Shown here: piece by piece, positions 11,097 through 41,885 of the stretch
Numbering within the stretch: position 1 is the stretch's first letter
Layout of the letters: the number at the start of each line of letters is the position of its first letter
Assembly (NCBI GenBank): GCA_035281225.1
Contig: DATEEI010000035.1
Location: forward strand, 9,607-73,606
Direction of reading: 5' to 3'
DNA length: 64,000 nt
DNA from: Vicinamibacterales bacterium
Lineage (GTDB): Bacteria > Acidobacteriota > Vicinamibacteria > Vicinamibacterales > JAMQPK01
The notes under the pieces: model-generated
Told to the model about the DNA's origin: nothing
The model's input: only the letters and a program-made list of their open reading frames with translations
Databases searched by the model: none
Program-made: the position numbers and the translations under genes

Positions 11097-11274
11097 CGCT
11101 GCAAGTTCAAATGGTTGCGGGGGCTCGCAACCACCATTATCTGCTACTTTGGCGGCTAGCGGCTTAAGCCACTGGCGACTCCAACATCTCCACATCCTGC
11201 AGGGTTTGCGCCGTTTTCAGAGTAGGGCTCACGAACGGCAGCGAGCCTCCTTCGGCCCTGTTACCCTGTCCACG

Positions 11275-12312
11275 ATGCCATTCAAGGATTATCTCAGTTC
11301 GATTCTCGACGTATTCTCGAGGCACCGACGCATGGCCGATTCGCCTGAGCTCGCCGCCCCCACTGCATCCCCTAAAAACCACCATTTCGTCCCGCAGATG
11401 TACCTGCGCGCCTTCGCCGACCCCGCCTCGAAGCAAGGGGAGCTCTGGCGCTACGGCCCGGGTTTCAAGCCGCAGCTGAGGGCCCCCAAAGGCGTCGCCT
11501 GGCAGGACTACTTCTACGACGTCGCCGGCGAGTTGCCGCCGGAGGACAACGACATGGAGAAGTTCTACGGCGAGACGGAGACGATCGCGGCGCCTCACCT
11601 GGAGAAGCTGCGCGCCGGGAACATTAAGCTTACGCCCCAAGAGAAGAGCGAACTAGCCACGTTTATCTCGCTGCTGCGAACCCGCACGCGCTCGTACCGC
11701 GAGCAGGTGAACATGATCTTTTCGAAGATGCACGTCCAGGTGGCGAAGGAAACGCTGGAGACGAAGGGCGGCGTCGAGGATCTGATCGAGTCGAACGTCA
11801 AGCTCGGGGGCGAGCGCCTCGAGGTGGAGCAAGTGCGCTCCGCACTCCAGGCCGTCATCGACGGCAGCGTCATCGTCGAGCAGACGAGCAAAGCGTGGAC
11901 GATCAAGCAGGCGCTCGAAAGCTCCGATCAACTCGACGAGCTCATCGAATCAATGAATTGGAACCTTTTCGAGGCGCCGGATGGTTACGCGTTCATCACC
12001 TCCGACAATCCGGCGGTGATCAACGACCCGCTCGGCCGCGCGCTCGGGCCGAAGGGATATCGCCCGACGAAGATGACGCAACTCCACTTTCCGGTGAGCT
12101 CGAAGTACCTCCTGATGGGCGACTTCCTCGGGCCGAACGAGACGGTGCAGAAGGCGTCGGCTGACCGGCTGGCGAAGTACAACTACAACCAGATTGTTAG
12201 CGCGCACAAAGAGATCTACGCGTCCTTTAAATCAAACGAGCTGCAGGCGGATGTGGACCGCGTGTTCAAGGAGAAGCCGCCACTCGTCCCGGACCTGACG
12301 GCCACCCGCTGA
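11275..12312 (+). CDS. DUF4238 domain protein
   Basis: The ORF track gives 11149..12312, and an in-frame ATG lies at 11275. The motif KNHHFVPQMYLRAFA is the signature DUF4238 N-terminus (HH.VP..YLr.F). G+C looks lower than in the flanks. Confidence 0.65.
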   Translation: MPFKDYLSSILDVFSRHRRMADSPELAAPTASPKNHHFVPQMYLRAFADPASKQGELWRYGPGFKPQLRAPKGVAWQDYFYDVAGELPPEDNDMEKFYGETETIAAPHLEKLRAGNIKLTPQEKSELATFISLLRTRTRSYREQVNMIFSKMHVQVAKETLETKGGVEDLIESNVKLGGERLEVEQVRSALQAVIDGSVIVEQTSKAWTIKQALESSDQLDELIESMNWNLFEAPDGYAFITSDNPAVINDPLGRALGPKGYRPTKMTQLHFPVSSKYLLMGDFLGPNETVQKASADRLAKYNYNQIVSAHKEIYASFKSNELQADVDRVFKEKPPLVPDLTATR

Positions 12313-12341
12313 GGACGAGGCCCGTAGATCCGCCGCCCGCC

Positions 12342-13262
12342 TTAGCCCGAATCAGGCAATCGCGCGTGCAGAATGCCTCGACGCGCCTCGTCCAACAGTT
12401 CAGTCGGTGAGACCAGTTGCGCGGCCTGCACTGATCCTGACATCACGACGTGTGCGCGTAGCCGTTCGTCGCCGGTGCAGATGAGCACCGGCAGCGCTAA
12501 CGCCTGGAGCATCTCCAGGTCGAACGAGTCGCCTCGCCGCTTCAGTGCGTCCGCGTTGTAGGACATGCCACCGCCAAGGGCAAGTGCAATAAAGCGAGAG
12601 CGACTACGGATGTAAGCGTCGTTTTGCCGGCGAAGGGTTGCTTCGTCCGGGCGACCACCGAAGAACGCGTGGAACTCAAGTTCCGCGACGTGGTCTTGCG
12701 TTGGCTGATATCCGGCGAGAGCCTGCTTCATCTCGCGAATCATGCCTCGCCATCCATCGCGATGTTCCTCCGACAGCCTTGTGGCGAGGTTCTCCGAACT
12801 CGCGATCCTGTACTGAACGCCATCAGAGCCCTCAAAGGTAGGTCCCGCTTCAAGGTCGGATGGCGCGCGCGCCTGGGACAAAAAGCGCCAGATCGCGATG
12901 CCATGCTCGCGGCGAGAAATCGAAGTACGTCGTGGTGGAGCAAAGAACAGGGACTGCGATTCGTCGTCGCTTGGAAAAAGTGGGGATTCTGGGTCCAGCA
13001 ACGCCGTAACGACACCAACCCGCTCCGACCAGCGGTTCCACGCTATGCGTCCTTCAAAGAGCGCCAGCGCCAATTCGGGCACAGCGTTGTTCGCAAGGCA
13101 CACCGATATGCCTGCCTCCTTCGGAACAAGTCTGTCAAAGTCTCTATATTCGGCATCGGCATACAAGATGCCGCGAACCGCCGACGTATCGAGAAGCACA
13201 CGCAGCAGCGGCACCCGACTAGATCCCTGTTCTTGTTCTTGCGGCTCTAGGTGACGACGCAT
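12342..13262 (-). CDS. hypothetical PIN-like nuclease with a large insertion
   Basis: The ORF track gives 12342..13391, which overlaps the upstream gene by 145 nt. The internal ATG at 13262 reduces the overlap to 16 nt. RVLLDTSAV (first acidic motif) and GDSFDLEMLQALALPVLICTGDERL (distal acidic motifs) resemble a split PIN fold. Weak call. Confidence 0.45.
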   Translation of the reverse strand: MRRHLEPQEQEQGSSRVPLLRVLLDTSAVRGILYADAEYRDFDRLVPKEAGISVCLANNAVPELALALFEGRIAWNRWSERVGVVTALLDPESPLFPSDDESQSLFFAPPRRTSISRREHGIAIWRFLSQARAPSDLEAGPTFEGSDGVQYRIASSENLATRLSEEHRDGWRGMIREMKQALAGYQPTQDHVAELEFHAFFGGRPDEATLRRQNDAYIRSRSRFIALALGGGMSYNADALKRRGDSFDLEMLQALALPVLICTGDERLRAHVVMSGSVQAAQLVSPTELLDEARRGILHARLPDSG

Positions 13263-14014
13263 TGGAACCACTCGATGCCCTGCTCGGCACAGACCAACCG
13301 GTATTGGGGCGGGATGTACTGGCAACAGATTGCGACGCGAACGCGTTCCTTCGCAATACTGTTCTGCGCACAATACAGTTGCCTGTGCCACAGGATCTGT
13401 CCAACAGCTTTGGCAAGTTCGTCAGCCTGAACCTTAACCTCGACGAGCATGAGTCGCCTCTCGCTGTCCTCGAACACTAGATCGACGAAACCGATCTCGC
13501 TATCCTGTGCAACGTGGACATCTCTCCCTTTCAGGGTGAGACCGGTTTCAAGAAGGTGCGGCTTAGAAGTGACCTGATCGATCAAGAGTTTGTGGATACG
13601 GCCTTCCATCCCCTTGCCGGAACGAGTTGTCCACGGTTGGCCTCCGGCGATCTTCTCCAAGTACTCGAGAGGCTCGATCTCATTTCCCGAGATGCGGCAG
13701 GGAAACACTTCGCATAACCGCGTGCCATCGTTAACAAGCAGAACCTGCTCTGGCAGCCATGCGAATGCGGATTTGCGGCTGCCAAAACTCCGACTCAGGC
13801 CGACTTTGCGTCTGACGGCGAAATCACGTAGCCCAAGCTTCTCGAGCCAATCGCGCTGCGCCGCGTACGTGGGAAACCGCGTGTCGGCGTCCTCCGTTGC
13901 GACCTCCCATCCTTTCGACTCAAGCTCGCCGAGCAGATGGCACATCCGGTTATGCGAAGCCTGGCGATCGGGATCCGAAAGAAGCGATGGCCTGTAGAAA
14001 TAAGTGATTCTCAT
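13247..14014 (-). CDS. NucS/DUF91-like PD-(D/E)xK endonuclease domain protein with an unknown N-terminal domain
   Basis: The C-terminus reads LLETGLTLKGRDVHVAQDSEIGFVDLVFEDSERRLMLVEVKVQADELAKAVGQILWHRQLY. This matches the NucS C-terminal/DUF91 pattern (iDll..d..g.lvvvE.K ... a.gQ.l.Y). Confidence 0.6.
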   Translation of the reverse strand: MRITYFYRPSLLSDPDRQASHNRMCHLLGELESKGWEVATEDADTRFPTYAAQRDWLEKLGLRDFAVRRKVGLSRSFGSRKSAFAWLPEQVLLVNDGTRLCEVFPCRISGNEIEPLEYLEKIAGGQPWTTRSGKGMEGRIHKLLIDQVTSKPHLLETGLTLKGRDVHVAQDSEIGFVDLVFEDSERRLMLVEVKVQADELAKAVGQILWHRQLYCAQNSIAKERVRVAICCQYIPPQYRLVCAEQGIEWFQCVVT

Positions 14015-14203: not shown

Positions 14204-14941
14204 TCACACGGCCCACCACCAGTTGGATCGGTAAAGCGTTACTCCCGGTAGTTTCGTCCAGTTTCGCTGCTCCCACATGTTTCGCTTCGGGCTTCCTCCC
14301 TCTTTTGAGGACTCATTCATCCTCTCGTAAACGTCAGCGGTGATCCACGTCGCAAAGTCGCCTTCGCGCAAATTCGAGAGTTTGGCGGCGTAATTTGCAG
14401 CCCGCCCCACCCACACAAGATCGTTCGAGCCGCGGATGCCGGTTCGGGCCACAAAGATCTCGCTCAGGTCGACACCAACGGCGTGCGTCAGGTTATACGT
14501 CGAGTCCGGATACTGCTTCTTGATTGCCGGGTTGATGATGTGTCGCACTGTATAGTTGATCTGCAGCCCGCATTTGGCAGAATTCGTCCGTTTGTGGTCT
14601 CCGACAAAGACAGCCATGATTCGGTCGCCATCAAAGGCCGTGATCTCGCCATCTCGTTGGCGAACAATCTTTGACGCGCAGTGCAGGAATGCCTTATAGA
14701 CTTCGGCAGCGAACGAGTCGCTGTGCTCGTTCACAAGGGCTGTCGACTCTGCCAGATCGGCGTAGAGAACGGCGGCTTCTTCAAACTTGACCGCGTCGTT
14801 GCCGAGACCCACATCTTCGGCTTCCGGAATGACGTATCCCTTCCGTGTGTTCCACCTGGTTGCGAATATGTCTTGGACCTCTGCAGCGAGTTCTTCTTTC
14901 AGGCCCATCGGAGTCTCTTCGCTCTCCCCATACGCGACCAT
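14204..14941 (-). CDS. pycC: Pycsar-type class III nucleotide cyclase (PycC-like)
   Basis: The ORF track gives 14204..15076, which overlaps the upstream gene. In-frame ATGs lie at 14941 and 14908. Class III cyclase motifs are AAVLYADLAESTALV (metal Asp), EITAFDGDRIMAVF (second Asp) and VWVGRAANYAAKLSN (Asn/Lys). The size and single-domain layout are typical of PycC. Confidence 0.8.
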   Translation of the reverse strand: MVAYGESEETPMGLKEELAAEVQDIFATRWNTRKGYVIPEAEDVGLGNDAVKFEEAAVLYADLAESTALVNEHSDSFAAEVYKAFLHCASKIVRQRDGEITAFDGDRIMAVFVGDHKRTNSAKCGLQINYTVRHIINPAIKKQYPDSTYNLTHAVGVDLSEIFVARTGIRGSNDLVWVGRAANYAAKLSNLREGDFATWITADVYERMNESSKEGGSPKRNMWEQRNWTKLPGVTLYRSNWWWAV

Positions 14942-14975
14942 TTCGTCGAGTTGTGACTCGAGTCGATGACCATAT

Positions 14976-15512
14976 TCATATCGCCTTCCAGGCGACGTAT
15001 GTCCAACCGATGATGATGAGCCCAATACAGAACAGCAGGATCGCCACCTTGATGTTGTGGTGCTTGCGCCCCGCAATGCCTGCCGACAGGTGGATCTGAT
15101 AAATCCAGTCTTCTCGCAGATCCGCAGGACTAACGCTGTTGAGGCGTTCGCGGTAATCTGCGAGAGTCACGTCGGCGATATGACCGAAATAGGTGATGGA
15201 CTTCGGGCCTCGATCCGGGTGCTCACTTTTGGCCCAACGCCACAATCGTATCCACCACTGATCCGAAGTGCGCGGAAACAGCGCTTGGAGCGACTTCGTC
15301 AGAGCGACGATTAGGAACCCGAACCCGACCAAAAACCACAACTTGTTCTCGAACGAGTTGTGCGGATCCTCAATCCACGCGATCAGCGCCGGAATCAGCA
15401 GCGCCAGAACGCCCGCTTCAACAGCCGTAAGAATGTCGACCTTAACGTCGGCGGCACGCGTCCACTCGTGAATGCGATCGAGGATGGGTTCCAAATCTTC
15501 CGTTTCAATCAT
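14976..15512 (-). CDS. pycTM: Pycsar transmembrane effector (PycTM / DUF5706-like)
   Basis: 178 aa. The N-terminus reads RAADVKVDILTAVEAGVLALLIPALIAW. It is followed by a TM hairpin, ALFPR, SITYFGHIADVTLADYRERL and IYQIHLSAGIAGRKHHNIKVAILLFCIGLIIIGW. This matches my memory of the Pycsar effector (DUF5706) family. Confidence 0.7.
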   Translation of the reverse strand: MIETEDLEPILDRIHEWTRAADVKVDILTAVEAGVLALLIPALIAWIEDPHNSFENKLWFLVGFGFLIVALTKSLQALFPRTSDQWWIRLWRWAKSEHPDRGPKSITYFGHIADVTLADYRERLNSVSPADLREDWIYQIHLSAGIAGRKHHNIKVAILLFCIGLIIIGWTYVAWKAI

Positions 15513-15595: not shown

Positions 15596-16504
15596 TCAGT
15601 TGTTCGGGCCGAGATCGTTGATGATGTCCCTGATCCGGTTGCAGGCAGGCCCCATCGCAGCAGGCAGATCCTTCGGGTCGTACTTGTATGCGATAGCTGT
15701 GATGCCGCTGAGGTCCGACGGCAACTTCACCTCTTCGCCGCGCGGCTCCAGTAACAGCGACCGGTGCCGTCCAAGCCGTCCCATGAAGAATCCGAGCTCG
15801 AAAATGACGTTGTCGCGGGGCGTGGGCTTCGCCTCACCGCGGCTCTCCGTCAGGTCGTCGGGTTGCGCGATGGCGATCGCGAAGTCCGACTGGTCAAGTT
15901 CGCGTTCAAGGCTTTCCACTGGATAGCAGGACGCCCGAAAAACGCCGTCGGTCCAGATGACGACTGTGAATGGATCGTATTCGAATGCATTCTGAACGCC
16001 CCGTGCGATCGGCAGAGCCTCCACGGACGAGATGATAAACACGCGGATCTTCTCGCGCCGCGTTGTGATGAGCAAATTGCGCTGCATGAGGCGGCGCGCC
16101 AGTTCTTTTGCGATGGCCCGGTAGATATTTGGGTATTTCTGTCCAAGGGCCGACAGCTGCGGTTCGGTGAGTTTTAGTACAACCGAGGGTTCCGCCGCGA
16201 CGACCGTGGCGGAACGGCGCTGCGAGGGCTGAATGGCGGCCATCTCGCCGACACAATCGGTCGGACCCCGCATCGCGACCTTCTTGCCATTCACGAGAAT
16301 CGTGAATGAACCGGCGAGGATCAGAAAGCAGTCTGTATCCTGGCCGTTCTGGTCGATTATTGGGGTATCCGGCACGATCTCGCGGAGCTCGCCGACGGCG
16401 GCCATCTCCTCGGCCAGCGCTTCGTTGCCGCCTACAATCTTCTGCTCTTTGAGCACGTCGACCAGGACGCGGCGTCCGTGCTCACCCTCGAATCGATCCT
16501 TCAT
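15596..16504 (-). CDS. cyclic-nucleotide-binding domain fused to a TIR-like (CAP12/PycTIR-type) effector domain
   Basis: The ORF track gives 15596..16582. ATG at 16504 is preceded by GGAGGAG. The cNMP phosphate-binding cassette reads CVGEMAAIQPSQRRSATVVAAEP. The C-terminal half reads IRVFIISSVEALPIARGV ... NVIFELGFFMGRLGRHRSLLL ... KLPSDLSGI, which fits the TIR-like nucleotide-binding domain family. Confidence 0.8.
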   Translation of the reverse strand: MKDRFEGEHGRRVLVDVLKEQKIVGGNEALAEEMAAVGELREIVPDTPIIDQNGQDTDCFLILAGSFTILVNGKKVAMRGPTDCVGEMAAIQPSQRRSATVVAAEPSVVLKLTEPQLSALGQKYPNIYRAIAKELARRLMQRNLLITTRREKIRVFIISSVEALPIARGVQNAFEYDPFTVVIWTDGVFRASCYPVESLERELDQSDFAIAIAQPDDLTESRGEAKPTPRDNVIFELGFFMGRLGRHRSLLLEPRGEEVKLPSDLSGITAIAYKYDPKDLPAAMGPACNRIRDIINDLGPNN

Positions 16505-16557
16505 CGCCCAATCTCCTCCAGCCGCCACGGAGTTCGATGCTTTCGTCGTGAAGTGGC

Positions 16558-17094
16558 TTAGCTCTTTGTCGAACGCGACCACTCGCTCATATATCGAAGT
16601 AGCTTACGCAGGCCGCGAACTCCAGAGTGTTCGTGCTCGTAGTGGATCGCTACGGTTACTGGCAGTGCATTGGGAGTAAAAGCCATCGCCGAGACATCGA
16701 TCCTCCTGCCTGCGGTAAGCGTCGCGATAAGCAGTATGAGGAAGTTGGCGCCCACCTTCGGATCCTCAACGAGGGACTGCATGGTCGCGATGTCGACCGC
16801 GCTTGGCAACGGCTCGAACGTCGGATGCGAATGCCACTCACCGAGATAGTTAAAGCGCGTGAAGTCCTGGCCCGTGCGAGCAAAGAACGATCTGAGCTGC
16901 ACGTCATGGTTCGCTGGATCACGTACGAACTGTGTGTGCGACCCACCGGATCGCTGCACTGACACGTCGACGACGCGAAACACTCCCTCGCGGACATGCT
17001 CACCCATCATGAGTCCGCCGATCTCCTGCGCCCCCGCTCGCTTGAGTTCCCGACGAATTCGCTGGAGGATTCGAGCCGGCAGGAGAAGCTGCAT
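16558..17094 (-). CDS. cap3: JAB/JAMM metalloprotease (Cap3-like)
   Basis: The catalytic Glu context is AQEIGGLMMGEHV. A perfect JAMM motif follows: HSHPTFEPLPSAVD (H-x-H-x7-S-x2-D). Confidence 0.8.
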   Translation of the reverse strand: MQLLLPARILQRIRRELKRAGAQEIGGLMMGEHVREGVFRVVDVSVQRSGGSHTQFVRDPANHDVQLRSFFARTGQDFTRFNYLGEWHSHPTFEPLPSAVDIATMQSLVEDPKVGANFLILLIATLTAGRRIDVSAMAFTPNALPVTVAIHYEHEHSGVRGLRKLLRYMSEWSRSTKS

Positions 17095-18781
17095 TCTGGT
17101 AGTCCGTTAGCAACTGGATAACGGTCGCGATCTCCGCTGCCGCTTCCGGGGAATCGGTGCCCGCGTCTGTGCGCTGCGGCTGGCCGACGTCGATTGGATA
17201 CGTATCGAATGGCGCCTCGAAAATCCAGCCTTTAGAGAGACCGATCAGGTAAACAGAATTCGGGAACATTGACGGTGTCCGTGCGAGAAGCGTGTCGATT
17301 GCCAGCCGTGCTGCATGTGCTGCGAGCACCGTGACATCCGCATCATCGGCAATCAGAGGTGCTTCTTCGGCGCCGCCGTAGTCATTCGCTGCGCGAGCGA
17401 TCGGCTTGCCCCGGTCAGCGCACCAGGCTTCAATCATGCGGCGCATCGACGCCGGATCAGGTTCGTGATCGGGCCGGTGGCGAGCTACCAGACCACCAAA
17501 GCCGCCGCCGAAGACCTCCGCCCAGACCAACGCCCTCTTACCGAGAGCCACTGCGGCACAAAGGTAGTTGAAGGCAACCGGGTTTGCGGTTGCATCCACG
17601 ATGAGATCGCATCCCGCGAGACTTTCGATCAGCGTCTCGACGCTTCCACTTGCTTCCTGGCCACCGAGGCGGTGCCGGCGCCGTTCGCAGCTCGCTCCCG
17701 GGTTAACCAGCTGAATTCGACGTGCTACGCTGTCGGCTTTGTGAGTTCCGATTTCGCGCCAATCCAAATCATGGCGCACGAGATTGTCGGGCAACATCAT
17801 GTCGTCATCGACCAAGAGGAACTTCTTCGCTCCTGAACGAGCCAACATCACCGCGATCTTGCTGCCGATTGAGCCGCACCCGATGACCGCAACTTTTCCT
17901 TCCGCCAAGGCCGCATGATCCGGGTCGAGTCGAGGCGACGTGGGCGGAAGCACGATCACGGCTGGCTGCCAGACCTGAGCATCTTCGTCGCCAAGACCGT
18001 AAGCGTGTATCTGCGATCCCTGCAGCAGCAACACATGCGAGACGTTCGGAATCGACAAGCCGCGTTCGCGTGCTCCCGCTCGAAACTCAGCTGACGTCTT
18101 CACCGACAGTCGCCGGACGCCTTCCGGCCACCTGAAGATTGCGATCTCCCGCTCCCACCCTTCAGCGCGGAAAGGCTCTGGCATTTCATGCTCGACCCAC
18201 GTCTCGCCGCTCGGCATCGCAATGGAACTAATGGCGTTGACCCATGACTCTTCGTGCAATGCGCCCACAGCTTTGGCCGAGACGACGACGTCGTCGTCGA
18301 CCCTCGCTAACGCCTCGGCCGCACCACGCGTGATCACGAACCGCGTAAACCTGTTTCGCAGGTCCTGTCCGAGAGTGGTCTTGTGACGAGACGGGACGAG
18401 AGCCGCTTCGCCGGTGATACTCTCGCTGCTCAGCAGTCGATAGGCGCTGAGGATCATGTCGGCGCCGGTAATCTCCGGATGCCAATTGTCCGGGCCATAT
18501 TCGAGACACAATTCACCGCCCGGTCCGTACTGGTGCGACGACCAATGCTCCGAGTCACCGCGTGGAAGGACCACAGGTGGTGAGTGCGGAAAGTGATTGG
18601 GGTACCGCAATGACACGGGATAAGTACGCTCGTGCGTCGAAAGATCAATGTCCCAGATGAGACGCAGCGATTCGTCGACCCTGAGCCCGAGCGGCGTCAT
18701 CCACGTAACCTGTGACGCGAGCGTTTCGATCGCTTCCCGTTCGCGTTTGCTGCGCGCGGGATTGTCGAAATACCAGATCAT
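17000..18781 (-). CDS. cap2: E2-like + E1 (ThiF)-like fusion protein (Cap2-like)
   Basis: The N-terminal prokaryotic E2-like region reads YPNHFPHSPPVVLPRGDSEHWSSHQYGPGGELCLEYGPDNWHP. The central ThiF/E1 Rossmann fold reads KVAVIGCGSIGSKIAVMLARSGAKKFLLVDDDMMLPDNLVRHDL ... CDLIVDATANPVAFNYLC. Its ATG overlaps the cyclase stop (ATGA at 18778-18781). Confidence 0.8.
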   Translation of the reverse strand: MIWYFDNPARSKREREAIETLASQVTWMTPLGLRVDESLRLIWDIDLSTHERTYPVSLRYPNHFPHSPPVVLPRGDSEHWSSHQYGPGGELCLEYGPDNWHPEITGADMILSAYRLLSSESITGEAALVPSRHKTTLGQDLRNRFTRFVITRGAAEALARVDDDVVVSAKAVGALHEESWVNAISSIAMPSGETWVEHEMPEPFRAEGWEREIAIFRWPEGVRRLSVKTSAEFRAGARERGLSIPNVSHVLLLQGSQIHAYGLGDEDAQVWQPAVIVLPPTSPRLDPDHAALAEGKVAVIGCGSIGSKIAVMLARSGAKKFLLVDDDMMLPDNLVRHDLDWREIGTHKADSVARRIQLVNPGASCERRRHRLGGQEASGSVETLIESLAGCDLIVDATANPVAFNYLCAAVALGKRALVWAEVFGGGFGGLVARHRPDHEPDPASMRRMIEAWCADRGKPIARAANDYGGAEEAPLIADDADVTVLAAHAARLAIDTLLARTPSMFPNSVYLIGLSKGWIFEAPFDTYPIDVGQPQRTDAGTDSPEAAAEIATVIQLLTDYQNAASPAGSNPPANSSGTQASGGAGDRRTHDG

Positions 18782-20334
18782 GCAAACCCATCCGGTTTCG
18801 CGGGACCTGCCGGTCGACTCGGGAAGGTGAAAGACGAAGGCGCAGGCGTTGCCGGTTTCAGCGACCCGGCCGCGGCCATCGCCCGAGCGGCTTTAGCAGT
18901 GGCGTCATTCTTGTCGGCCAACTCTCTGACCGCGATGTCGTAAGTCAGCCCCGATCGCTTCCGCGATTTCCCGAACACCGCGCGCACTGCATCGTTACCG
19001 CTGTCGTACGCGATGGACCCAATCGCCGTTTCCGTGCCGGCGCAGCGCGACTGCTCGCGTTCGGCGGCAACAACGCCGCGGCTAGCCGAACAGCGTACCA
19101 ACTCGCCCTTGATGCCAAGGCGCGTTACGTTCATCGGTCCGTACTCGAATCCGATGGCCAGGCCAAGACTGCTAGCGTCGGTGCCATTCGCCTTGAGCTT
19201 CGAGATGGCGAGCTCAAAGCTGCTGCGCATGCCGCCGGCGCACAGCGTCTGGTTGCTGATGGTCTCGATCTCGTCCGACGTCTGCGCTGTGCCCTCTACA
19301 AGGAGCCCATGAACGCAGTCGCCGATAAACCGCACTTTCCGGCCGGCGAAGTCGGTGTGAAGCACAGCGTCCAGTTCACTGCGCAGCACATGCAACGCGC
19401 GCACGACGTGTTTAGCGGTGGCGTCAGTTGTGATGTTCTTGGTCACGTAGGCGGTGAAGCCGTCGACATCGGCATAGACCGTAGCCGCATCCTGACGTCG
19501 CGTGTTCTTCACCGACAGCTCTTCGATGTCGAGCGTGCTGAAGGGCGGCGTATGCCCGCTGAAGCCAAAGGCGCCGATAGGACTATTCTTGAGATCGTCC
19601 TTCCATTCCTTCACAATCTCGTCGGCCGTGACATCCAAGGCCGCCTTGTCTTGTGACTTCGAGATCTCCTGGGCGGTGAGCGGCGTGGTGTCTTCGTTGT
19701 CGACGCGCTTCAGACCGAGCGTCTCGCGGGCTTTGTTCGTCAGATAGATTCCCGTCGCCGCCCCTCCCGATGCGCGCTTCGCGGCTTGATTCGCTGGCTC
19801 TCCAAGGAACAGGGGTTCCCGATGGCCTCGGCGTCCGTTGTTCACGGCGAGGGCTTCACCGGTGTCGATCCCCACTCTGACCTTCGCGGCAGGATGGTCG
19901 GCGTCCTCGCCGGTCTGCGCGAGCACGTCGATGATCAGCTGCGCCACGGCGACGGCCTTGTGAATGCGGTCGATCTCCGAGTCATACGGCTTCGCGATCA
20001 CCGAGTGCAGACGCTGATTGTGAAAGTCGACAAAGATGGCGTCCACCCGCTGAAGGGTCCGATGGACGGCTCGGTAATGCAGGTTGAGGAATCGGAGCGT
20101 CCGCCGGTGGCAAGTCTCGCCTTCCACCTCGGTGACGTGAAGCATGTCCGCTAGGTTGAGAATGTCGGCGTAGAGGTGGACGCCGTGGAGGCGGTACGCG
20201 ATGTTCCGAGGCAGGCTGGTCAGGTCCGTCTCGCGCACGAACTTCTTGATCACGATGTCGCCGATCGGAAGGTCAGCGATGCAGGCATCGATGCGCTTCG
20301 CGGCTCGGTCTTTGTCCCAGGTACGTGTAGCCAC
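18778..20334 (-). CDS. tandem class III nucleotide cyclase (two cyclase-homology domains in one chain, PycC-related)
   Basis: The ORF track gives 18778..20415 with a TTG start and no SD. GTG at 20334 is preceded by GGAGGAAGAAGAC and is the more plausible start. Domain 1 motifs are HLYADILNLADM and RVGIDTGEALAVNNGRRGHREPLFLGEPANQAAKRAS. Domain 2 motifs are ATVYADVDGFTAYV, VRFIGDCVHGLL and GLAIGFEYGPMNVTRLG. Confidence 0.75.
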   Translation of the reverse strand: MATRTWDKDRAAKRIDACIADLPIGDIVIKKFVRETDLTSLPRNIAYRLHGVHLYADILNLADMLHVTEVEGETCHRRTLRFLNLHYRAVHRTLQRVDAIFVDFHNQRLHSVIAKPYDSEIDRIHKAVAVAQLIIDVLAQTGEDADHPAAKVRVGIDTGEALAVNNGRRGHREPLFLGEPANQAAKRASGGAATGIYLTNKARETLGLKRVDNEDTTPLTAQEISKSQDKAALDVTADEIVKEWKDDLKNSPIGAFGFSGHTPPFSTLDIEELSVKNTRRQDAATVYADVDGFTAYVTKNITTDATAKHVVRALHVLRSELDAVLHTDFAGRKVRFIGDCVHGLLVEGTAQTSDEIETISNQTLCAGGMRSSFELAISKLKANGTDASSLGLAIGFEYGPMNVTRLGIKGELVRCSASRGVVAAEREQSRCAGTETAIGSIAYDSGNDAVRAVFGKSRKRSGLTYDIAVRELADKNDATAKAARAMAAAGSLKPATPAPSSFTFPSRPAGPAKPDGFA

Positions 20335-20523
20335 GTCTTCTTCCTCCAGGTAGTTCACCCTGCTCGGCTGTGCTTCGGGAGGTAAATCCTGCGGAAGCGG
20401 GCGGAACCGGCTCAATGCACGGTTGACCGATGGTGCCGATGAGCGTACTCTTAAATGGGCCTAGTTTCTAGGACCAGTATAGTTAATATACCCATTCTGG
20501 CAGTGCTCAGCAAGGGGGTTTTT
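20335..20523. promoter_or_regulatory. divergent promoter/operator region between the cyclase operon and the WYL regulator
   Basis: This is a locally AT-rich patch in a GC-rich window. It contains a perfect palindrome CCTAG-TTT-CTAGG (20460..20472) and an inverted repeat GTATA-GTTAA-TATAC (20477..20491). Confidence 0.45.
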
Positions 20524-21465
20524 TTGGACAATGATCGTCGGCGTCGAGGGCCTGAGCAGCGCCTTGAATTCATCGAGTTCCGACTGTATTGGGAAGGGGC
20601 GGTAAACCGGAGCGACCTCGTTGAGCGGTTCGGCGTGTCTGTGCCCCAAGCGTCAAATGACCTGACGGCGTATCGGCAGCTAGTACCCGAGAACGTGGCC
20701 TACGATTTGAGCGGGAAGCGATACGTCCCTGCCACGACCTTCCGCCCGAAGTTCCTGAAGCCGAATCCAGACCGATACCTCGCCCAGTTGAAAGCCATGT
20801 CCGACGGAATCCTCGACGTCACCGATACATGGCTCGCCAGTCAGCCTGACACCGGCGTCTTGCCGATCCCGAACCGACGCACAGACCCGTCAGTGTTGCG
20901 GGCTGTGCTGATGGCCGTCCGAGCAAAGGGCAGCGTCCACGTGGAATACCAATCAACCAGTCCTGAGAATCCGGACCCGATTTGGCGGTGGATCACTCCG
21001 CACGCATTTGGGTTCGATGGACTGCGGTGGCACGTCCGTGCGTTCTGTCATCGTGACAATCGCTTCAAGGACTTCATTCTCGGCCGCTGTCTCGCCGTCG
21101 GCGAGCAAGGTCCCGCCGCCGCAGTGGCCGAAAAGGATTGGCAGTGGCAAACGTTCTTTGAAGTCGTTCTGCAGCCTAACCCAGATCTGGCGGACGGTCA
21201 GCGCCGAGCGGTTGCTCTCGACTACAACATGATCGAGGGGAGGATCGCAGTCCCCGTACGCTTTGCTCTGTTGTACTACTTCAACAAGCGCCTACGCCTG
21301 GATGTCGCCGAGCGGTTTGACAAGCCACGCGAGCGCCCAGTCGTCGTGGCAAACCAGGCGGACTTTGAAGCCGCACTGCAAAAGGCAGACGCCCCGTTAT
21401 CCACGTCAGAGAGAGTCGCGCAGCAAGCTGAAGGTGCCACGGCTTCTAGCCACTTGAGTCCGTGA
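20524..21465 (+). CDS. WYL-domain transcriptional regulator (CapW/BrxR-like)
   Basis: The ORF track start is ATG 20455, but the first 23 codons are AT-rich rare codons spanning the palindromes. TTG at 20524 follows AAGGGGG. The N-terminal wHTH reads RLEFIEFRLYWEGAVNRSDLVERFGVSVPQASNDLTAYRQL. The WYL-like core reads SVHVEYQSTSPENPDPIWRWITPHAFGFDGLRWHVRAFCHRDNRFKDFILGRC. Confidence 0.8.
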   Translation: MDNDRRRRGPEQRLEFIEFRLYWEGAVNRSDLVERFGVSVPQASNDLTAYRQLVPENVAYDLSGKRYVPATTFRPKFLKPNPDRYLAQLKAMSDGILDVTDTWLASQPDTGVLPIPNRRTDPSVLRAVLMAVRAKGSVHVEYQSTSPENPDPIWRWITPHAFGFDGLRWHVRAFCHRDNRFKDFILGRCLAVGEQGPAAAVAEKDWQWQTFFEVVLQPNPDLADGQRRAVALDYNMIEGRIAVPVRFALLYYFNKRLRLDVAERFDKPRERPVVVANQADFEAALQKADAPLSTSERVAQQAEGATASSHLSP

Positions 21466-21561: not shown

Positions 21562-21987
21562 TTACGACGAGCCAGCGTCCTCGAGCATGAGCTGTCGGTT
21601 CACGGTGGCAACGAAGTCGTAGAGTTCTCCAGAGCGGACGACCTCCGCTCCAAGCGCCAGTTTTCCTTGCGCAGCACGAATCACCGTTTTCATCGTCGCG
21701 TCGAAACCGATAACGATCCACCACTCCTGACCGTCAACCTCCGTAGACCAGGCTGTGTTCACGAACTTTCCCTTATCAGTCCGGACCTCGGCGGTCATCA
21801 GACGCCAACGATCTGGATCGAAGTTCTGAAGTTGTTCGAGAGGAGCGCCACGTTCATAGCTGCGGTCTTGAACATGGCGAGCGTGGGTCTTCAACACTCG
21901 CACGTCCCGCATTTTGAAGCGAACCCGCTCAAAGAGTTCTGGTGGGCCGGTCAATGTGTGGAAACGAGCAACATGAAACTTCGGCAT
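21562..21987 (-). CDS. small hypothetical protein (possibly DUF4258/RelE-fold-like), the last gene of the large defence operon
   Basis: The ORF track gives 21562..22041. ATG at 21987 shares 1 nt with the PLD stop (TGATG). The segment THARHVQDRSYERGAPLEQLQNF loosely resembles DUF4258. Weak family call. Confidence 0.4.
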   Translation of the reverse strand: MPKFHVARFHTLTGPPELFERVRFKMRDVRVLKTHARHVQDRSYERGAPLEQLQNFDPDRWRLMTAEVRTDKGKFVNTAWSTEVDGQEWWIVIGFDATMKTVIRAAQGKLALGAEVVRSGELYDFVATVNRQLMLEDAGSS

Positions 21988-24566
21988 CAAGCTCCGACGA
22001 CTCGCTGAGAAGCGGCGTCCATGGTGACCCACTCGACGCACTTGACATGAGTCGTGAGGAATTGGCGTTCCTCGTCTTCAACCTCAGCGTCGAAGACTGT
22101 GATCTTGTCCGAGGCGCCAGAAGGGACGACTTCGAGAGCGATGCGAACACGTGGATCGAGCGCCGAGCCGAGGATGACGAGGTCACCGGGACGGGGCGCG
22201 CGACCGGACTTCCGGACCGCCTCCGGGGTCTTCTCGACATCGGCCAAAAAATCTGCCAGGCGAAGATGACTCGCGACCCAGGAGTTGCCGTCAGCATCTC
22301 TTCGCGCTGTCCGACCGACGGCCTGGCTGAGGGTATCGCGCGCTTCTAGGTCGCCAGCTAGCTGACCGGCGATCGCGGCAAACACCTGAATCGGGTACCA
22401 CGGGCTGTCCTCCTCCTCCAGGTCGATTGGGCTAGTCCGGTTGACCGCGGCCCTAACGTTGATCTCCATTTCCCACGCTAACCACGCTAGCAATCCAATC
22501 GCGAGGGATAGTTCCTGGAATGGCTCGCCATCCCCCTCCTTTAGCGATCTTGGCGCTAACGATGAACCGCCCCAAGTGAGCGCCAACCCGCCAGCTTCGA
22601 ACAGCACCCACTCATCATTTGGGTCCACGAGCGTCAGATGCTTCGAGCGCCACTCCGTCCGCTGCTCCATGGTACGAAGGGTGTGCACGACGCTGAGGAC
22701 TGCGGCAAGCTGCACGACTGCACGCCGAGCGACACCATCGCGCGCTGCATCGAGCTGTTTCACCATTCGCCTAATCAGCCGACCGACCTTACCGCGGCAC
22801 AAATCCGCCAAGACTTCGTACGGAGGGGGAGGCGGTGGAGGCTCCTCATCTCCGGCGTCGTCGTCGGTGACGGGCAGCACTTCTTCAGCTGGTGGACGCG
22901 GCGGCGCCGGCGCCAACAGGCCCTCGCCGAGCCGGCACATCAAGGCATCCAACAGAACGAGGATGTCGCCGCTGGCCAACCGTTTCTTCTTCCGACCGGA
23001 GCGTCGGCCAGCCGCGTCCACGGCGAGCGACTCTGGGCCGGGTTCATGGGTCTCTGCACGGTTGGTCTCCGTCTTTCGACGGATGGCAGGTTCGGGAGTG
23101 ACTACGTCGTCCGAGTCGAAGATTACCTTCTGTGTCAGCTTCAGGAGCGCGTCGAGCTGTGCAGGATCCTCGTCGAGTGCTCCGAGGAGTTGTCGCAATT
23201 CACGCTGCCGGTCACCGCCAACGTTCCTGGCAACTTCATCAGGTCGATGGACCAGCACCACCACCCGTTTCTTTCCGGGACCGAACCCACGCAAGGTCTG
23301 TGCGGCGTCGCGTACGGCATCCGCTGCGTCGATGGCCAATTCGTTACCCGTGCGCGTGAGTGCTTGGCCCAGGTTGCTGCCATCTGCAGCGAAGGCATCG
23401 AGCACGATTCGCGGGCCTATCGGTCGCTCGAGTGCAAAGCCGTCGTCTGAGGGGACGGCAAGCACTACCGTCCCGCGGCCGTCCGACTTCTCCTCGACGA
23501 GGTCGGCCTGCCTATCTGCGACTTTGGTCCATTCCTTCGCTCCAACACTCGGTGCAGCCACGAACGCGTCAATGCCGAGTGCCTTCGCGGCTCCTTCGCG
23601 ACGATCGACAACCACAGCTTCGGCGTTTCTGAAGTGGTCCACCGGCAAAAAAGCCGCTTGCGAGGGATTTGCACTACCGGTCACGAGGAGCTCACCTTCA
23701 GAGCCCTCGAACCAAAGAACCTTCGCGTGCAGATACGTCGTGGCGGACTCTCGGCGATTGGGCACGCGCGGGAGTCCCGCAACGTTTACGAATTCGGCAC
23801 CACGGAACTTTCGAACCGACGCAGGGTCGATCTCGACTGACTCTGGGTCGATTCCGACGACAAGCCTGCGCGGCTTCACATCATCAAGGAGCTGTTGCAG
23901 AAATCCGAGCTTCTTGTCGAAGTACGGCCCGCACACGAAGGCTGTCGATGGTCGCTTGGGAACCATGGGCCTAATTCGTGACCACAGATCCGCATCATCA
24001 CCGGTTGTTGTCAGAAGGATTCGTTCGGTCGATTCAACGGCCATCGGACCGTCAAGCCATGGAATGTTCCGTCCGACGGAAGCGAACACCTGGTCCATGT
24101 CGGTGAGCCCGGTCGGCACGAATGTCCGCAGGTAGTCCAGCGCTGCGCGAATGACCGCGGCCCCTTGGCGGGCTCCCGCTCCACTGGTTCTGAACTCATT
24201 CGTGATCTCGTCGTTCAATCCAAAGCCTGCAAGTGTCGTGTTATGGCTGCCGACGAACAACGCACCTTTCGATTTTCCGAGAGCGACGATGAGTTTCGGA
24301 TGAAACGCTCCGCGGAGATGAACCGGAACCAGCGTGTAGTCGCGGCCGGCGCGCTTAGGTCGCGTGTCGTCGCACGCGAAAGCCTCAGCACACAGAGCGG
24401 CGTCGACAAGCAAGATGTTGTTGGTGCAACCCCGGTCCAGCAGACGACGAAGTACGACCTCCTCGTAGAAAGGAAAGTAGCAGCAGTACGTGGCTATTAT
24501 CGAAGCCTGAAAGCCGGTCTCGGAAAGTGCTTCGAGCAATGAGAACGACGCTGCCTCACGAGGCAC
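21987..24566 (-). CDS. PLD-family (two HKD motifs) nuclease-like protein with a long uncharacterised C-terminal region
   Basis: HKD-1 reads FHPKLIVALGKSKGALFVGSHNTTLAG and HKD-2 reads YLHAKVLWFEGSEGELLVTGSANPSQAAF. An acidic poly-Pro linker DDDAGDEEPPPPPPPYEVL follows. The remaining ~350 aa is unrecognised. Confidence 0.8.
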   Translation of the reverse strand: MPREAASFSLLEALSETGFQASIIATYCCYFPFYEEVVLRRLLDRGCTNNILLVDAALCAEAFACDDTRPKRAGRDYTLVPVHLRGAFHPKLIVALGKSKGALFVGSHNTTLAGFGLNDEITNEFRTSGAGARQGAAVIRAALDYLRTFVPTGLTDMDQVFASVGRNIPWLDGPMAVESTERILLTTTGDDADLWSRIRPMVPKRPSTAFVCGPYFDKKLGFLQQLLDDVKPRRLVVGIDPESVEIDPASVRKFRGAEFVNVAGLPRVPNRRESATTYLHAKVLWFEGSEGELLVTGSANPSQAAFLPVDHFRNAEAVVVDRREGAAKALGIDAFVAAPSVGAKEWTKVADRQADLVEEKSDGRGTVVLAVPSDDGFALERPIGPRIVLDAFAADGSNLGQALTRTGNELAIDAADAVRDAAQTLRGFGPGKKRVVVLVHRPDEVARNVGGDRQRELRQLLGALDEDPAQLDALLKLTQKVIFDSDDVVTPEPAIRRKTETNRAETHEPGPESLAVDAAGRRSGRKKKRLASGDILVLLDALMCRLGEGLLAPAPPRPPAEEVLPVTDDDAGDEEPPPPPPPYEVLADLCRGKVGRLIRRMVKQLDAARDGVARRAVVQLAAVLSVVHTLRTMEQRTEWRSKHLTLVDPNDEWVLFEAGGLALTWGGSSLAPRSLKEGDGEPFQELSLAIGLLAWLAWEMEINVRAAVNRTSPIDLEEEDSPWYPIQVFAAIAGQLAGDLEARDTLSQAVGRTARRDADGNSWVASHLRLADFLADVEKTPEAVRKSGRAPRPGDLVILGSALDPRVRIALEVVPSGASDKITVFDAEVEDEERQFLTTHVKCVEWVTMDAASQRVVGA

Positions 24567-26196: not shown

Positions 26197-26214
26197 CGAA
26201 ATCGCACTCGAAAC

Positions 26215-29562: not shown

Positions 29563-29565
29563 TAG

Positions 29566-32460
<2,895 letters not shown>

Positions 32461-32521
32461 GATCAATGAGCCGGGCGTCCGTTCCGTCGAAGCAGCTTGT
32501 GGCTTACTGTCGACTCTGGCG

Positions 32522-41246: not shown

Positions 41247-41885
41247 CTTGGGCTCAAACCCACAAAGTCGGACCTCGCGCATCCGCGAAGCGCGACTGTA
41301 ACGTTAACCGAAACGAAGAGATCCCGAGAGTCGGAACTGACGTCGCCCAGTGCTACGGCCGTCGCCGTTGGGGTACCGCCAGATTGAACACAACAGAATA
41401 TCGAAGAGGGTGACAGGCTAGGTCACACGCGTACGAGCGCCACGATGGGCGGCGCATCAGGAGCTGAAGTCACTGAGCGGGGTCTTCCGACGCCCGGCGT
41501 GCGCCTGCCTTTCGGCGTGTCGAGCCACGATAACGCGCCCGGCGCGGCAAAATGTACGAGTAATTTTTTCCGGCGTGTCAGCCTTCACGACACCGTCTTG
41601 GCGCCGACATTTTGATTCTTGCCTGTTTTGTGAAGCGCGCGCTAACAGCCGAGCGGTACTCTTCTTGCCTTTTGACGGCGCACGCGGGACCGCTCAGTCA
41701 GGGATTTCCCGTTGCAATTCCCTCCCCGGTAACCCGCCACAAATCAATCTCTGTCCGCCAATTGAATTGGAACCGCTAATCGTCTGTCCGCGCGGGCCGA
41801 CAATACGCACGCGTGTATACATCACAATACGTAAGCTTGTATACGTTATGAACATTCGTGAACCGCGGTCCGAGATGGAGTCCGT

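What the first reader, a model, noticed from the sequence alone, without database searches (positions are those of the whole stretch)
15596..20415. Class III (Pycsar-type) cyclase operon carrying a Cap2-like E2-E1 fusion and a Cap3-like JAB protease: a ubiquitin-like-regulated cyclic-mononucleotide defence module
Four co-directional, tightly packed minus-strand genes make up this module.
1. A 545-aa protein with two class III cyclase-homology domains.
2. A 593-aa protein with an E2-like region (GGELCLEYGPDNW) plus a ThiF/E1 domain (VAVIGCGSIGSKIAVMLARSG...DDDMMLPDNLVRHDL). Its start overlaps the cyclase stop as ATGA.
3. A JAMM protease (EIGG, HSHPTFEPLPSAVD).
4. A cNMP-binding + TIR-like effector.

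In characterised type II CBASS, Cap2 and Cap3 regulate a CD-NTase (Pol-beta fold). Pycsar as described is a class III cyclase plus an effector, without ubiquitin-like machinery. Here the Cap2/Cap3 pair is attached to a class III cyclase, and the receptor is a canonical cNMP-binding domain. No CD-NTase-like ORF is present nearby. That makes this a hybrid, a type II Pycsar logic. I do not know of an experimentally characterised example. Comparative-genomic catalogues may already list it, and I cannot check.
Basis: partly seen in the sequence, partly recalled or inferred. Interest (0 to 1): 0.9.

Follow-up and report, generated by a model that had tools for sequence, protein, structure and literature searches.

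The report
Type II Pycsar anti-phage operon
This is a real bacterial anti-phage signalling operon in which a nucleotide cyclase is paired with ubiquitin-ligase-like and protease genes, but the arrangement is widespread and already named "Type II Pycsar", so it is a new member of a known kind.

Summary
Four tightly packed minus-strand genes encode a two-domain class III cyclase, a Cap2-like E2-E1 fusion, a Cap3-like JAB protease and a cNMP-binding TIR effector. No CD-NTase was called within about 10 kb.

The novelty claim does not hold. The cyclase is a clade A PycC (E 3e-174 to PaPycC, PDB 6YII), and PADLOC 2023 has near-full-length models for all four proteins. The literature already names "Type II Pycsar" (PMC11601596) and describes a "Pycsar-like-4" subclade with E2/E1/JAB/WYL partners (bioRxiv 2026.08.12.744502). 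In a one-genome-per-species scan, 50 of 70 informative clade A loci carry the Cap2-like gene. The rest checked carry an E2-only gene.

New supporting evidence:
- All 55 Cap2-linked cyclases end in G-[F/Y]-[A/S] (50 GFA). None of 22 Cap2-less ones does. This points to the cyclase C-terminus as the Cap2 substrate, as in type II CBASS.
- The cluster is larger than reported. A PycTM effector and a clade B PycC follow directly, and a BrxR/CapW-like WYL regulator is divergent upstream.
- Gene starts need correcting: the cyclase is 518 aa and the TIR protein 302 aa.

I found no experimental test of the Cap2/Cap3 role in Pycsar. Interest is about 0.3.

The parts
20455..21465 (+). BrxR/CapW-like WYL transcription regulator, divergent from the cyclase operon
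   Evidence: Pfam WYL. Precomputed WHD_BrxR, WYL and BrxR_CTD. PADLOC WYL 2.2e-11. Homologs lie divergent and immediately upstream of the cyclase in at least 10 other loci.
20335..20454 (.). Divergent intergenic region of 120 bp, the presumed promoter/operator. It contains the SD GGAGGA for the cyclase.
   Evidence: Sequence read. The consensus promoter scan showed no excess over shuffles. An imperfect inverted repeat at 20454-20496 overlaps the WYL start. The regulatory function is inferred, not shown.
18778..20334 (-). Clade A PycC: a two-domain class III cyclase of 518 aa (maximal ORF to 20415 = 545 aa) with a conserved C-terminal ...KPDGFA tail
   Evidence: PADLOC PycC 5.9e-215. 6YII/PaPycC 3.2e-174. 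Clade A is defined by two cyclase domains (PMC11224242). Start. Tail. The C-half keeps D316/D366 and the N-half keeps N209.
17000..18781 (-). Cap2-like E2-E1 fusion of 593 aa. Its start overlaps the cyclase stop (ATGA).
   Evidence: ThiF 2e-21 and weak UQ_con. PADLOC E1-E2 1.3e-200. Foldseek top hit Cap2 7TO3, E 1.5e-18. Invariant C92, G301xGSxG306, R336 and K348; D392 in 52 of 53.
16558..17094 (-). Cap3-like JAB/JAMM isopeptidase of 178 aa. It overlaps the Cap2 3' end by 95 nt.
   Evidence: Prok-JAB 6.7e-14. PADLOC JAB 8e-61 from residue 1. Sub-threshold NCBIfam Cap3 hit. E24, H88xH90, S98 and D101 conserved.
15596..16504 (-). PycTIR effector of 302 aa: cNMP-binding domain plus TIR NADase domain (maximal ORF to 16582)
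   Evidence: Pfam cNMP_binding plus CAP12-PCTIR_TIR. PADLOC TIR effector 1.8e-133 and PycTIR 6.7e-121. PDB PycTIR 8JSJ 7.7e-48. G112-E113, R123-x-A125 and E262 conserved, numbered on the 328-aa ORF.
14976..15512 (-). PycTM membrane effector of 178 aa, 83 nt downstream of PycTIR
   Evidence: Pfam PycTM 3.5e-13. PADLOC PycTM 1.2e-28. PycTM also follows JAB or TIR in type II loci L064 and L057.
14204..14941 (-). Second cyclase: a single-domain clade B-type PycC of about 234-245 aa
   Evidence: PADLOC PycC PDLC00766 2e-102. BcPycC 7R65 1.5e-57. A homolog lies within 9 kb of the clade A cyclase in 25 of 80 loci.

Best explanation
The locus is a Type II Pycsar abortive-infection operon inside a defence island of a Vicinamibacterales (Acidobacteriota) metagenome-assembled genome.

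**Proposed mechanism.**
1. The clade A PycC is a fused pseudo-heterodimer with one composite active site. Metal-binding Asp316 and Asp366 come from the C-terminal half, and Asn209 comes from the N-terminal half. It makes a 3',5'-cyclic mononucleotide. cUMP is most likely, going by the literature assignment for clade A.
2. By analogy with type II CBASS, the Cap2-like E1 domain adenylates the cyclase's own C-terminal alanine (...GFA).
3. The acyl group passes to the invariant E2 cysteine C92 and then onto a target amine. This primes the cyclase.
4. The Cap3-like JAB isopeptidase reverses the conjugation and limits signalling.
5. The cyclic nucleotide binds the CNBD of PycTIR, and probably PycTM. 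That triggers NAD+ depletion and membrane damage and aborts infection.
6. A divergent BrxR/CapW-like WYL protein controls transcription.

**Shown here:** protein identities, intact catalytic motifs, the conserved architecture, and the tail-Cap2 co-occurrence.

**Inferred:** conjugation of the cyclase, the nucleotide product, priming, the immunity phenotype and the regulator's role.
For: **Protein identities.** Family and structure matches support all four proteins.

**Conserved architecture.** It recurs across Acidobacteriota, Nitrospirota, and Alpha-, Beta- and Gammaproteobacteria. Among 70 informative loci, 50 have Cap2, 46 also have JAB, and 42 also have TIR.

**C-terminal tail.**
- All 55 Cap2-linked cyclases end G-[F/Y]-[A/S]; none of the 22 Cap2-less ones does.
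- 116 of the 120 closest database homologs end in GFA, although the preceding Ala/Pro-rich tail is variable.
- No separate ubiquitin-like gene was called within about 10 kb of the operon.

**Translational coupling.** The cyclase stop overlaps the Cap2 start as [A/G/T]TGA in 39 of 52 loci.

**Catalytic residues.**
- E2 C92 is invariant in 53 sequences.
- The JAMM motif is intact.
- The cyclase catalytic residues are split between the two halves.
- The TIR glutamate and the CNBD phosphate-binding cassette are conserved.

**Context.** The neighbours are defence genes: Hma, DUF4238-Pers, and PycTM plus a clade B PycC.

**Literature.**
- "Type II Pycsar" uses a fused E2-E1 protein (PMC11601596).
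- The Pycsar-like-4 subclade has E2/E1/JAB/WYL associations.
- Clades A-D are reported to make cUMP (PMC11224242).
Against: - I found no biochemical or genetic test of Cap2/Cap3 in any Pycsar system in the searchable literature.
- The tail-Cap2 correlation follows a subclade split, so it may reflect few evolutionary events.
- The candidate E1 catalytic cysteine (C454) is present in only 35 of 53 orthologs. Some orthologs have no cysteine in the E1 part other than C302, which sits in the nucleotide-binding GxGSxG loop. The canonical E1~thioester step may therefore not apply.
- The nucleotide product is uncertain. AF3 ligand scoring in the 2026 preprint favours ATP for this subclade.
- The crystallised relative PaPycC belongs to the E2-only subtype, not the Cap2/Cap3 subtype.
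- The window's PycTIR is more similar to TIRs that sit next to clade B cyclases (52-63%) than to TIRs directly after JAB in those loci (42-45%). Which cyclase feeds which effector is unresolved.
- The Cap2 model is only moderate (pLDDT 68.8).
Confidence: 0.75

Rival explanations
1. Two independent Pycsar systems lie side by side with no cross-talk. One is a type II unit (clade A PycC, Cap2, Cap3, PycTIR). The other is a canonical type I unit (PycTM plus clade B PycC). The six-gene cluster is then only defence-island packing.
For: PycTM plus a single-domain PycC is a standard Pycsar pair. Fifty-five of 80 clade A loci have no clade B cyclase within 9 kb, so the four-gene unit can stand alone.
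Against: A clade B PycC lies within 9 kb in 25 of 80 loci. It is often directly upstream of the clade A cyclase (L010, L015, L025), or it shares the only TIR gene present (L061, L070, L076). PycTM also follows JAB or TIR in type II loci that lack a clade B cyclase (L057, L064). The spacers are 34-83 nt with no terminator signal above chance. Both clades are reported to make cUMP.
Confidence: 0.4
2. The clade A protein is not the signal generator. It is a nucleotide-binding sensor or modifier that Cap2 conjugates to targets in the manner of a ubiquitin-like protein. Any cyclic nucleotide comes from the neighbouring clade B PycC.
For: The PDB entry for the ortholog is named only "Transcriptional regulator". 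One of the two cyclase domains is degenerate. A second, canonical cyclase is present in the cluster.
Against: The residues for one complete active site are at least 97% conserved across 80 sequences. Most loci have no second cyclase yet still carry a cNMP-dependent effector. RefSeq names the ortholog a uridylate cyclase, and the literature lists clade A as cUMP-producing.
Confidence: 0.07
3. Cap2/Cap3 act on a substrate other than the cyclase, such as a host or phage protein or a ubiquitin-like protein encoded elsewhere. They are only co-transcribed with the Pycsar genes.
For: Conjugation of the cyclase has not been demonstrated. Bil and Bub systems use separate Ubl proteins.
Against: No Ubl-like gene was called in the cluster. 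The G-[F/Y]-[A/S] terminus occurs only, and always, when Cap2 is present. Stop/start overlap couples cyclase and Cap2 translation.
Confidence: 0.06
4. These are housekeeping genes: a cAMP/cGMP signalling cyclase next to a ThiF/MoeB-type sulfur-carrier adenylyltransferase and a JAB peptidase for cofactor biosynthesis.
For: Generic annotations read this way, for example "ThiF family adenylyltransferase", "molybdopterin/thiamine biosynthesis adenylyltransferase" and "class 3 adenylate cyclase".
Against: All NCBIfam ThiF/MoeB hits are far below their cut-offs. The protein has an N-terminal E2 domain and folds like Cap2. The effector is a TIR NADase. The context is a defence island, and the genes occur patchily on plasmids and across phyla.
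Confidence: 0.02

Closest known systems
Type II Pycsar (term used in PMC11601596), equivalent to the "Pycsar-like-4" subclade loci with E2-E1 and JAB genes (bioRxiv 10.64898/2026.08.12.744502)
   Same: A class III PycC-type cyclase, a fused E2-E1 protein, a JAB peptidase, a CNBD-TIR effector and a WYL regulator. Gene order and tight coupling match 40-50 species loci found here.
   Different: Nothing essential differs. This locus additionally carries PycTM and a clade B PycC directly downstream. Its effector and JAB are much more diverged from its closest relatives than its cyclase is (cyclase 90%, Cap2 75-77%, JAB 56%, TIR 40-43%).
P. aeruginosa clade A Pycsar (PaPycC, PDB 6YII, with PaPycTIR)
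   Same: A two-domain clade A cyclase (E 3.2e-174; 56% identity by tblastn) and a CNBD-TIR effector.
   Different: The Pseudomonas locus has an E2-only gene overlapping the pycC stop. It has no E1 domain and no JAB, and its cyclase tail ends ...QKVDGSR rather than GFA. The effector lies upstream of the cyclase.
Type II CBASS (CD-NTase, Cap2, Cap3 and effector; E. cloacae Cap2-CdnD02, PDB 7TO3)
   Same: An E2-E1 fusion with the same overall fold, a JAB isopeptidase with an intact JAMM motif, a signalling enzyme with a short conserved C-terminal tail ending in a small residue, and a CapW-like WYL regulator.
   Different: The signalling enzyme is a class III cyclase, not a Pol-beta-fold CD-NTase. 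The signal is a cyclic mononucleotide read by a CNBD, not SAVED/STING/CapV-type receptors. Sequence identity to Cap2 is about 15%. The E1 cysteine is not conserved.
Canonical (type I) Pycsar, e.g. B. cepacia BcPycC plus PycTIR, or E. coli PycC plus PycTM
   Same: The cyclase family and both effector families. The downstream PycTM plus clade B PycC pair in this window is of this kind.
   Different: Canonical systems have two genes and no ubiquitin-like machinery. The cyclase is single-domain and homodimeric.

Membership tests
Pycsar | Class III-type PycC cyclase | tested here: met
   PADLOC PycC PDLC00762 5.9e-215, near full length. PDB 6YII (PaPycC) 3.2e-174. Pfam Guanylate_cyc in two stretches.
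Pycsar | Effector with a cyclic-nucleotide-binding domain fused to TIR, or a PycTM membrane protein, adjacent to the cyclase | tested here: met
   cNMP_binding plus CAP12-PCTIR_TIR. PycTIR 8JSJ 7.7e-48. PycTM 3.5e-13.
Pycsar | Cyclase synthesises cUMP or cCMP | not testable with these tools
   Catalytic residues are conserved. The literature assigns cUMP to clade A, but AF3 scoring in a preprint favours ATP.
Pycsar | Confers phage resistance by abortive infection | not testable with these tools
   Only context is available: a defence island with Hma, DUF4238-Pers and a second Pycsar.
Type II Pycsar | Fused E2-E1 (Cap2-like) gene in the PycC operon | tested here: met
   PADLOC E1-E2 1.3e-200. 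Foldseek top hit Cap2 7TO3. ATGA overlap with the cyclase. Invariant E2 Cys92.
Type II Pycsar | JAB/JAMM peptidase (Cap3-like) with an intact active site | tested here: met
   Prok-JAB 6.7e-14. E24, H88xH90, S98 and D101 conserved.
Type II Pycsar | The signalling enzyme is conjugated through its C-terminus | tested here: inconclusive
   The G-[F/Y]-[A/S] terminus occurs in 55 of 55 Cap2-linked cyclases and 0 of 22 Cap2-less ones. This supports the feature but is indirect. No biochemistry was possible.
Type II CBASS | CD-NTase (Pol-beta fold) signalling enzyme | tested here: not met
   The cyclase is class III. No CD-NTase was found among called genes within about 10 kb.
Type II CBASS | Cap2 E2-E1 fusion plus Cap3 JAB | tested here: met
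   NCBIfam Cap3 and 6A-MBL cap2_3 hits are below their cut-offs.
Type II CBASS | Conserved E1 catalytic cysteine for a thioester relay | tested here: inconclusive
   C454 is present in the window protein but in only 35 of 53 orthologs. Some orthologs lack any candidate cysteine.

The most novel reading that the evidence does not exclude
The cluster may be a single composite unit with two sensors and two effectors. A Cap2/Cap3-gated clade A cyclase and an ungated clade B cyclase would be co-transcribed and feed the same cyclic-nucleotide pool, which both PycTIR and PycTM read. This recurrent dual-cyclase arrangement (25 of 80 loci) would widen phage sensing or amplify the signal. In addition, this Cap2 lineage may pass the cyclase acyl-adenylate directly to the E2 cysteine without an E1 thioester. 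Several orthologs have no E1-region cysteine outside the nucleotide-binding loop.
Probability: 0.25. Interest if true: 0.55.

Novelty: new member of a known kind. Interest (0 to 1): 0.3.

Why it matters
The Cap2/Cap3 conjugation machinery is a portable regulator. It has been attached to unrelated signalling enzymes: CD-NTases, class III cyclases and, per a 2025 preprint, Thoeris TIRs. The role of Cap2/Cap3 in Pycsar appears to be untested experimentally.

The strict link found here between a Cap2 gene and a G-F-A cyclase terminus gives a sharp, cheap prediction to test. The dual-cyclase, dual-effector layout is a candidate example of built-in sensor redundancy. None of this changes the classification, because the locus itself is an ordinary member of a catalogued system.

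Tried and rejected
- **Primary Pycsar and CBASS papers.** I tried to read Tal et al. 2021, Ledvina et al. 2023, Hobbs & Kranzusch 2024 and Burroughs et al. 2015 to see what they say about E1/E2/JAB genes in Pycsar. None is held. Prior art therefore rests on PMC11601596, PMC11224242 and the 2026 preprint.
- **Literature searches.** "Pycsar + JAB + PycC" returned nothing. "Type II Pycsar" returned one work.
- **NCBIfam.** No model reached its cut-off for any of the seven proteins. There were only sub-threshold hits to ThiF/MoeB, Cap3, Cap12 and 6A-MBL cap2_3.
- **Promoter and terminator scan.** It gave no signal above shuffles, so operon boundaries are not established.
- **Operator search.** I found one imperfect inverted repeat (71% complementary) overlapping the WYL start. 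It is not convincing.
- **E1 cysteine.** I considered C454 as the E1 catalytic cysteine on positional grounds. I rejected it as a conserved feature after the 53-sequence alignment.
- **Maximal ORFs.** I rejected the 545-aa cyclase and 328-aa TIR reading frames as the real gene models.
- **System-level classifiers.** PADLOC and DefenseFinder rules could not be run. Only the PADLOC HMMs were available.

Full report
**1. Observation**

The four co-directional minus-strand ORFs exist at the stated coordinates.

Profile searches give unambiguous assignments:
- The first protein matches Pfam Guanylate_cyc in two stretches. It matches the PADLOC PycC model PDLC00762 nearly end to end (5.9e-215).
- The second matches ThiF (2e-21), with a weak UQ_con hit at residues 52-120. 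It matches the PADLOC E1-E2 model PDLC00855 (1.3e-200).
- The third matches Prok-JAB and the PADLOC JAB models (8e-61).
- The fourth matches cNMP_binding plus CAP12-PCTIR_TIR, and the PADLOC TIR-effector and PycTIR models (1.8e-133 and 6.7e-121).

Against solved structures:
- The cyclase matches 6YII at 3.2e-174. A 2024 paper identifies 6YII as PaPycC, the clade A Pycsar cyclase, and says clade A is defined by two consecutive cyclase domains (PMC11224242).
- The effector matches PycTIR 8JSJ at 7.7e-48.

An AlphaFold2 model of the E2-E1 protein was built from a 41-sequence alignment (mean pLDDT 68.8). Its best Foldseek hit is E. cloacae Cap2 (7TO3), E 1.5e-18 over 615 columns. That is eight orders of magnitude better than the next family.

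The ATGA stop/start overlap is confirmed. Called genes with Pfam hits within about 10 kb include no CD-NTase.

**2. Corrections to the gene models**

- Most of the 120 closest cyclase homologs are 518 aa and begin M/V-A-T-R-x-W.
- In the window, GTG 20334 has GGAGGA seven bases upstream. The cyclase is therefore most likely 518 aa rather than the 545-aa maximal ORF.
- PycTIR most likely starts at ATG 16504, giving 302 aa. It has a GGAGGA SD, and the HMM matches start at residues 26-27.
- The 178-aa JAB start is needed to include the catalytic Glu24. It overlaps the poorly conserved Cap2 tail by 95 nt.

**3. Catalytic competence**

*Cap2.* Across 53 Cap2-like orthologs of 35-77% identity, the following are conserved:
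- the E2 cysteine C92 (in GGELCLE), invariant
- the nucleotide-binding loop G301xGSxG306, R336 and K348, invariant
- D392, present in 52 of 53

*JAB.* E24, H88-S-H90, S98 and D101 are conserved.

*PycTIR.* The CNBD phosphate-binding residues and the TIR glutamate in FELG are conserved.

*Cyclase.* I aligned its two halves with the single-domain PycC of the same window.
- The C-terminal half keeps both metal-binding aspartates (YAD316 and GD366).
- The N-terminal half has lost the second aspartate (NQ in its place) but keeps the Asn209-containing motif, which the C-half lacks.

The protein is therefore a fused pseudo-heterodimer with one composite active site. This mapping is an inference from motifs.

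*An unexpected point.* The positional candidate for the E1 catalytic cysteine, C454, is present in only 35 of 53 orthologs. Some Bradyrhizobium and Afipia orthologs have no cysteine in the E1 part apart from C302, which sits in the nucleotide-binding loop.

**4. How common the architecture is**

The cyclase family is large, with 1,436 proteins at E <= 1e-10 among the scored candidates.

A scan of one genome per species found 169 species with a relative, and I analysed the best 80 loci. They span Acidobacteriota, Nitrospirota, and Alpha-, Beta- and Gammaproteobacteria.

Among the 70 loci with a complete cyclase and more than 2.5 kb downstream:

| Feature | Loci |
|---|---|
| Cap2-like gene immediately downstream | 50 |
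| also a JAB gene | 46 |
| also a CNBD-TIR gene, co-directional or convergent | 42 |

The cyclase stop overlaps the Cap2 start as [A/G/T]TGA in 39 of 52 loci.

In the two Cap2-less loci I examined (L050 and the PaPycC locus L082), an E2-only gene sits between or beside cyclase and effector. It matches PADLOC E2 at 3.3e-94 and Pfam E2-ntca plus E2-Crich. Most other Cap2-less loci show a similar unassigned gap of about 0.8-1 kb between cyclase and TIR.

The crystallised PaPycC belongs to this E2-only subtype.
- On P. aeruginosa plasmid p382, RefSeq annotates pycTIR and pycC.
- An unlisted 257-aa E2-like ORF overlaps the pycC stop.

A Mesorhizobium plasmid carries the four-gene version under generic names: cyclase, ThiF family, Mov34/MPN/PAD-1 and TIR.

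**5. Evidence for the mechanism**

The strongest new evidence concerns the cyclase C-terminus.
- All 55 cyclases followed by a Cap2-like gene end in G-[F/Y]-[A/S] (50 GFA, 4 GFS, 1 GYA).
- None of the 22 cyclases without Cap2 does. Most of those carry an RP[YHF] motif about 3-7 residues before a variable end.
- In the wider database, 116 of the 120 closest homologs end in GFA. The Ala/Pro-rich stretch before the tail motif varies freely.

[quoted passage not shown] No ubiquitin-like gene was called in or near the operon. The cyclase itself is therefore the likely Cap2 substrate.

The caveat is that the correlation coincides with a subclade split, so the number of independent events is small.

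**6. Extent and context**

The module continues beyond the reported coordinates.
- Downstream: PycTM starts 83 nt after PycTIR (15512..14976), followed by a clade B PycC (14941..14204; BcPycC 7R65, 1.5e-57).
- PycTM is a genuine partner of type II loci elsewhere. L057 has cyclase-Cap2-JAB-TIR-PycTM, and L064 has cyclase-Cap2-JAB-PycTM with no TIR detected.
- A clade B PycC lies within 9 kb in 25 of 80 loci. It is often directly upstream of the clade A cyclase or adjacent to the only TIR gene.
- Upstream and divergent: a BrxR/CapW-like WYL regulator (20455..21465). Homologs sit in the same position in at least ten loci.

The wider region is a defence island:
- Hma system: HmaA 37677-41282, HmaB 29566-32466 and HmaC 26215-29562, with TmtA-like and RT-like genes inserted
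- a PLD/ZacB-like protein
- a NucS-like protein
- DUF4238-Pers

The window comes from ENA contig ERZ27257124 k141_1517608. The Cap2 protein is identical to an NCBI entry from a Vicinamibacterales MAG.

**7. Comparison with what is known, and novelty**

- A 2026 preprint co-authored by Burroughs and Aravind defines the "Pycsar-like-4" subclade by its association with E2-like proteins, "sometimes" fused to E1-like domains. It also notes JAB peptidases and WYL regulators, and suggests ligation by the E1-E2 ligases.
- PADLOC 2023 has dedicated HMMs.
- A 2025 preprint reports the same Cap2/Cap3 add-on in Thoeris, with the same C-terminal-tail argument.

What I could not find is any experiment on Cap2/Cap3 in a Pycsar system.

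The nucleotide product is also unsettled. The literature lists clade A as cUMP-producing. AF3 ligand scoring in the 2026 preprint favours ATP for this subclade.

**8. Verdict**

- The functional interpretation is supported, but the novelty claim is not.
- The locus is a new metagenomic member of a known kind, Type II Pycsar.
- It is embedded in a slightly richer cluster than reported, with a second effector, a second cyclase and a WYL regulator.

Three points remain of residual interest:
- the strict Cap2-GFA link, which is a directly testable prediction
- the recurrent dual-cyclase layout
- the lack of a conserved E1 cysteine

Interest is 0.3.

Noticed in passing
window 14204-15512 (minus strand): A PycTM effector and a clade B single-domain PycC follow PycTIR after spacers of 83 and about 34 nt. 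This makes a six-gene cluster with two cyclases and two effectors. A clade B PycC lies within 9 kb of the clade A cyclase in 25 of 80 species loci. It is often directly upstream of the clade A cyclase or next to the only TIR gene.
   Followed up: partly
Cap2-like protein, window 17000-18781, residue C454; orthologs in L016-L031: The positional candidate for the E1 catalytic cysteine is conserved in only 35 of 53 orthologs (Phe in 13). L018 and L023 have no cysteine in the E1 part except C302 in the nucleotide-binding loop. Only the E2 cysteine C92 is invariant.
   Followed up: partly
L082 6539-7312 (P. aeruginosa plasmid p382) and L050 10536-11324: Clade A loci without Cap2/JAB carry an E2-only gene (Pfam E2-ntca plus E2-Crich). 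In the locus of the crystallised PaPycC, this ORF overlaps the pycC stop and is absent from the PLSDB gene table. Cyclases of this subtype lack the GFA terminus and share an RP[YH] motif instead.
   Followed up: partly
window 21562-41282 (minus strand): An Hma defence system lies upstream: HmaA 37677-41282, HmaB 29566-32466 and HmaC 26215-29562. A TmtA-like 1387-aa gene (33514-37677) and an RT-like 331-aa gene (32522-33517) sit between HmaA and HmaB. After HmaC come a 546-aa protein, a PLD/ZacB-like 859-aa protein (21987-24566) and a 141-aa ORF.
   Followed up: partly
window 11149-14014: Further defence-island genes: DUF4238-Pers (11149-12312, plus strand), an unassigned 349-aa ORF (12342-13391) and a NucS_C-like nuclease (13247-14014).
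   Followed up: no
window 20454-20496: An imperfect 17-nt inverted repeat (71% complementary, 9-nt spacer) overlaps the annotated start of the WYL gene. It may be an operator, or a sign that the WYL start is mis-set.
   Followed up: no
L001 and L002 versus window 15596-20334: Identity to the closest relatives is discordant along the operon: cyclase 90%, Cap2 75-77%, JAB 56%, TIR 40-43%. This suggests recombination or module swapping at the 3' end. The TIR gene in L001 appears split into two ORFs.
   Followed up: no
L064 12851-17085: In Ideonella sp. the type II operon ends with PycTM and no TIR was detected. It is followed by two TniQ-like genes, which hints at carriage next to or on a Tn7-like element.
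   Followed up: no
window 42875-45304: An 809-aa protein gives a weak PADLOC mad8 (MADS system) hit at 4.2e-14.
   Followed up: no
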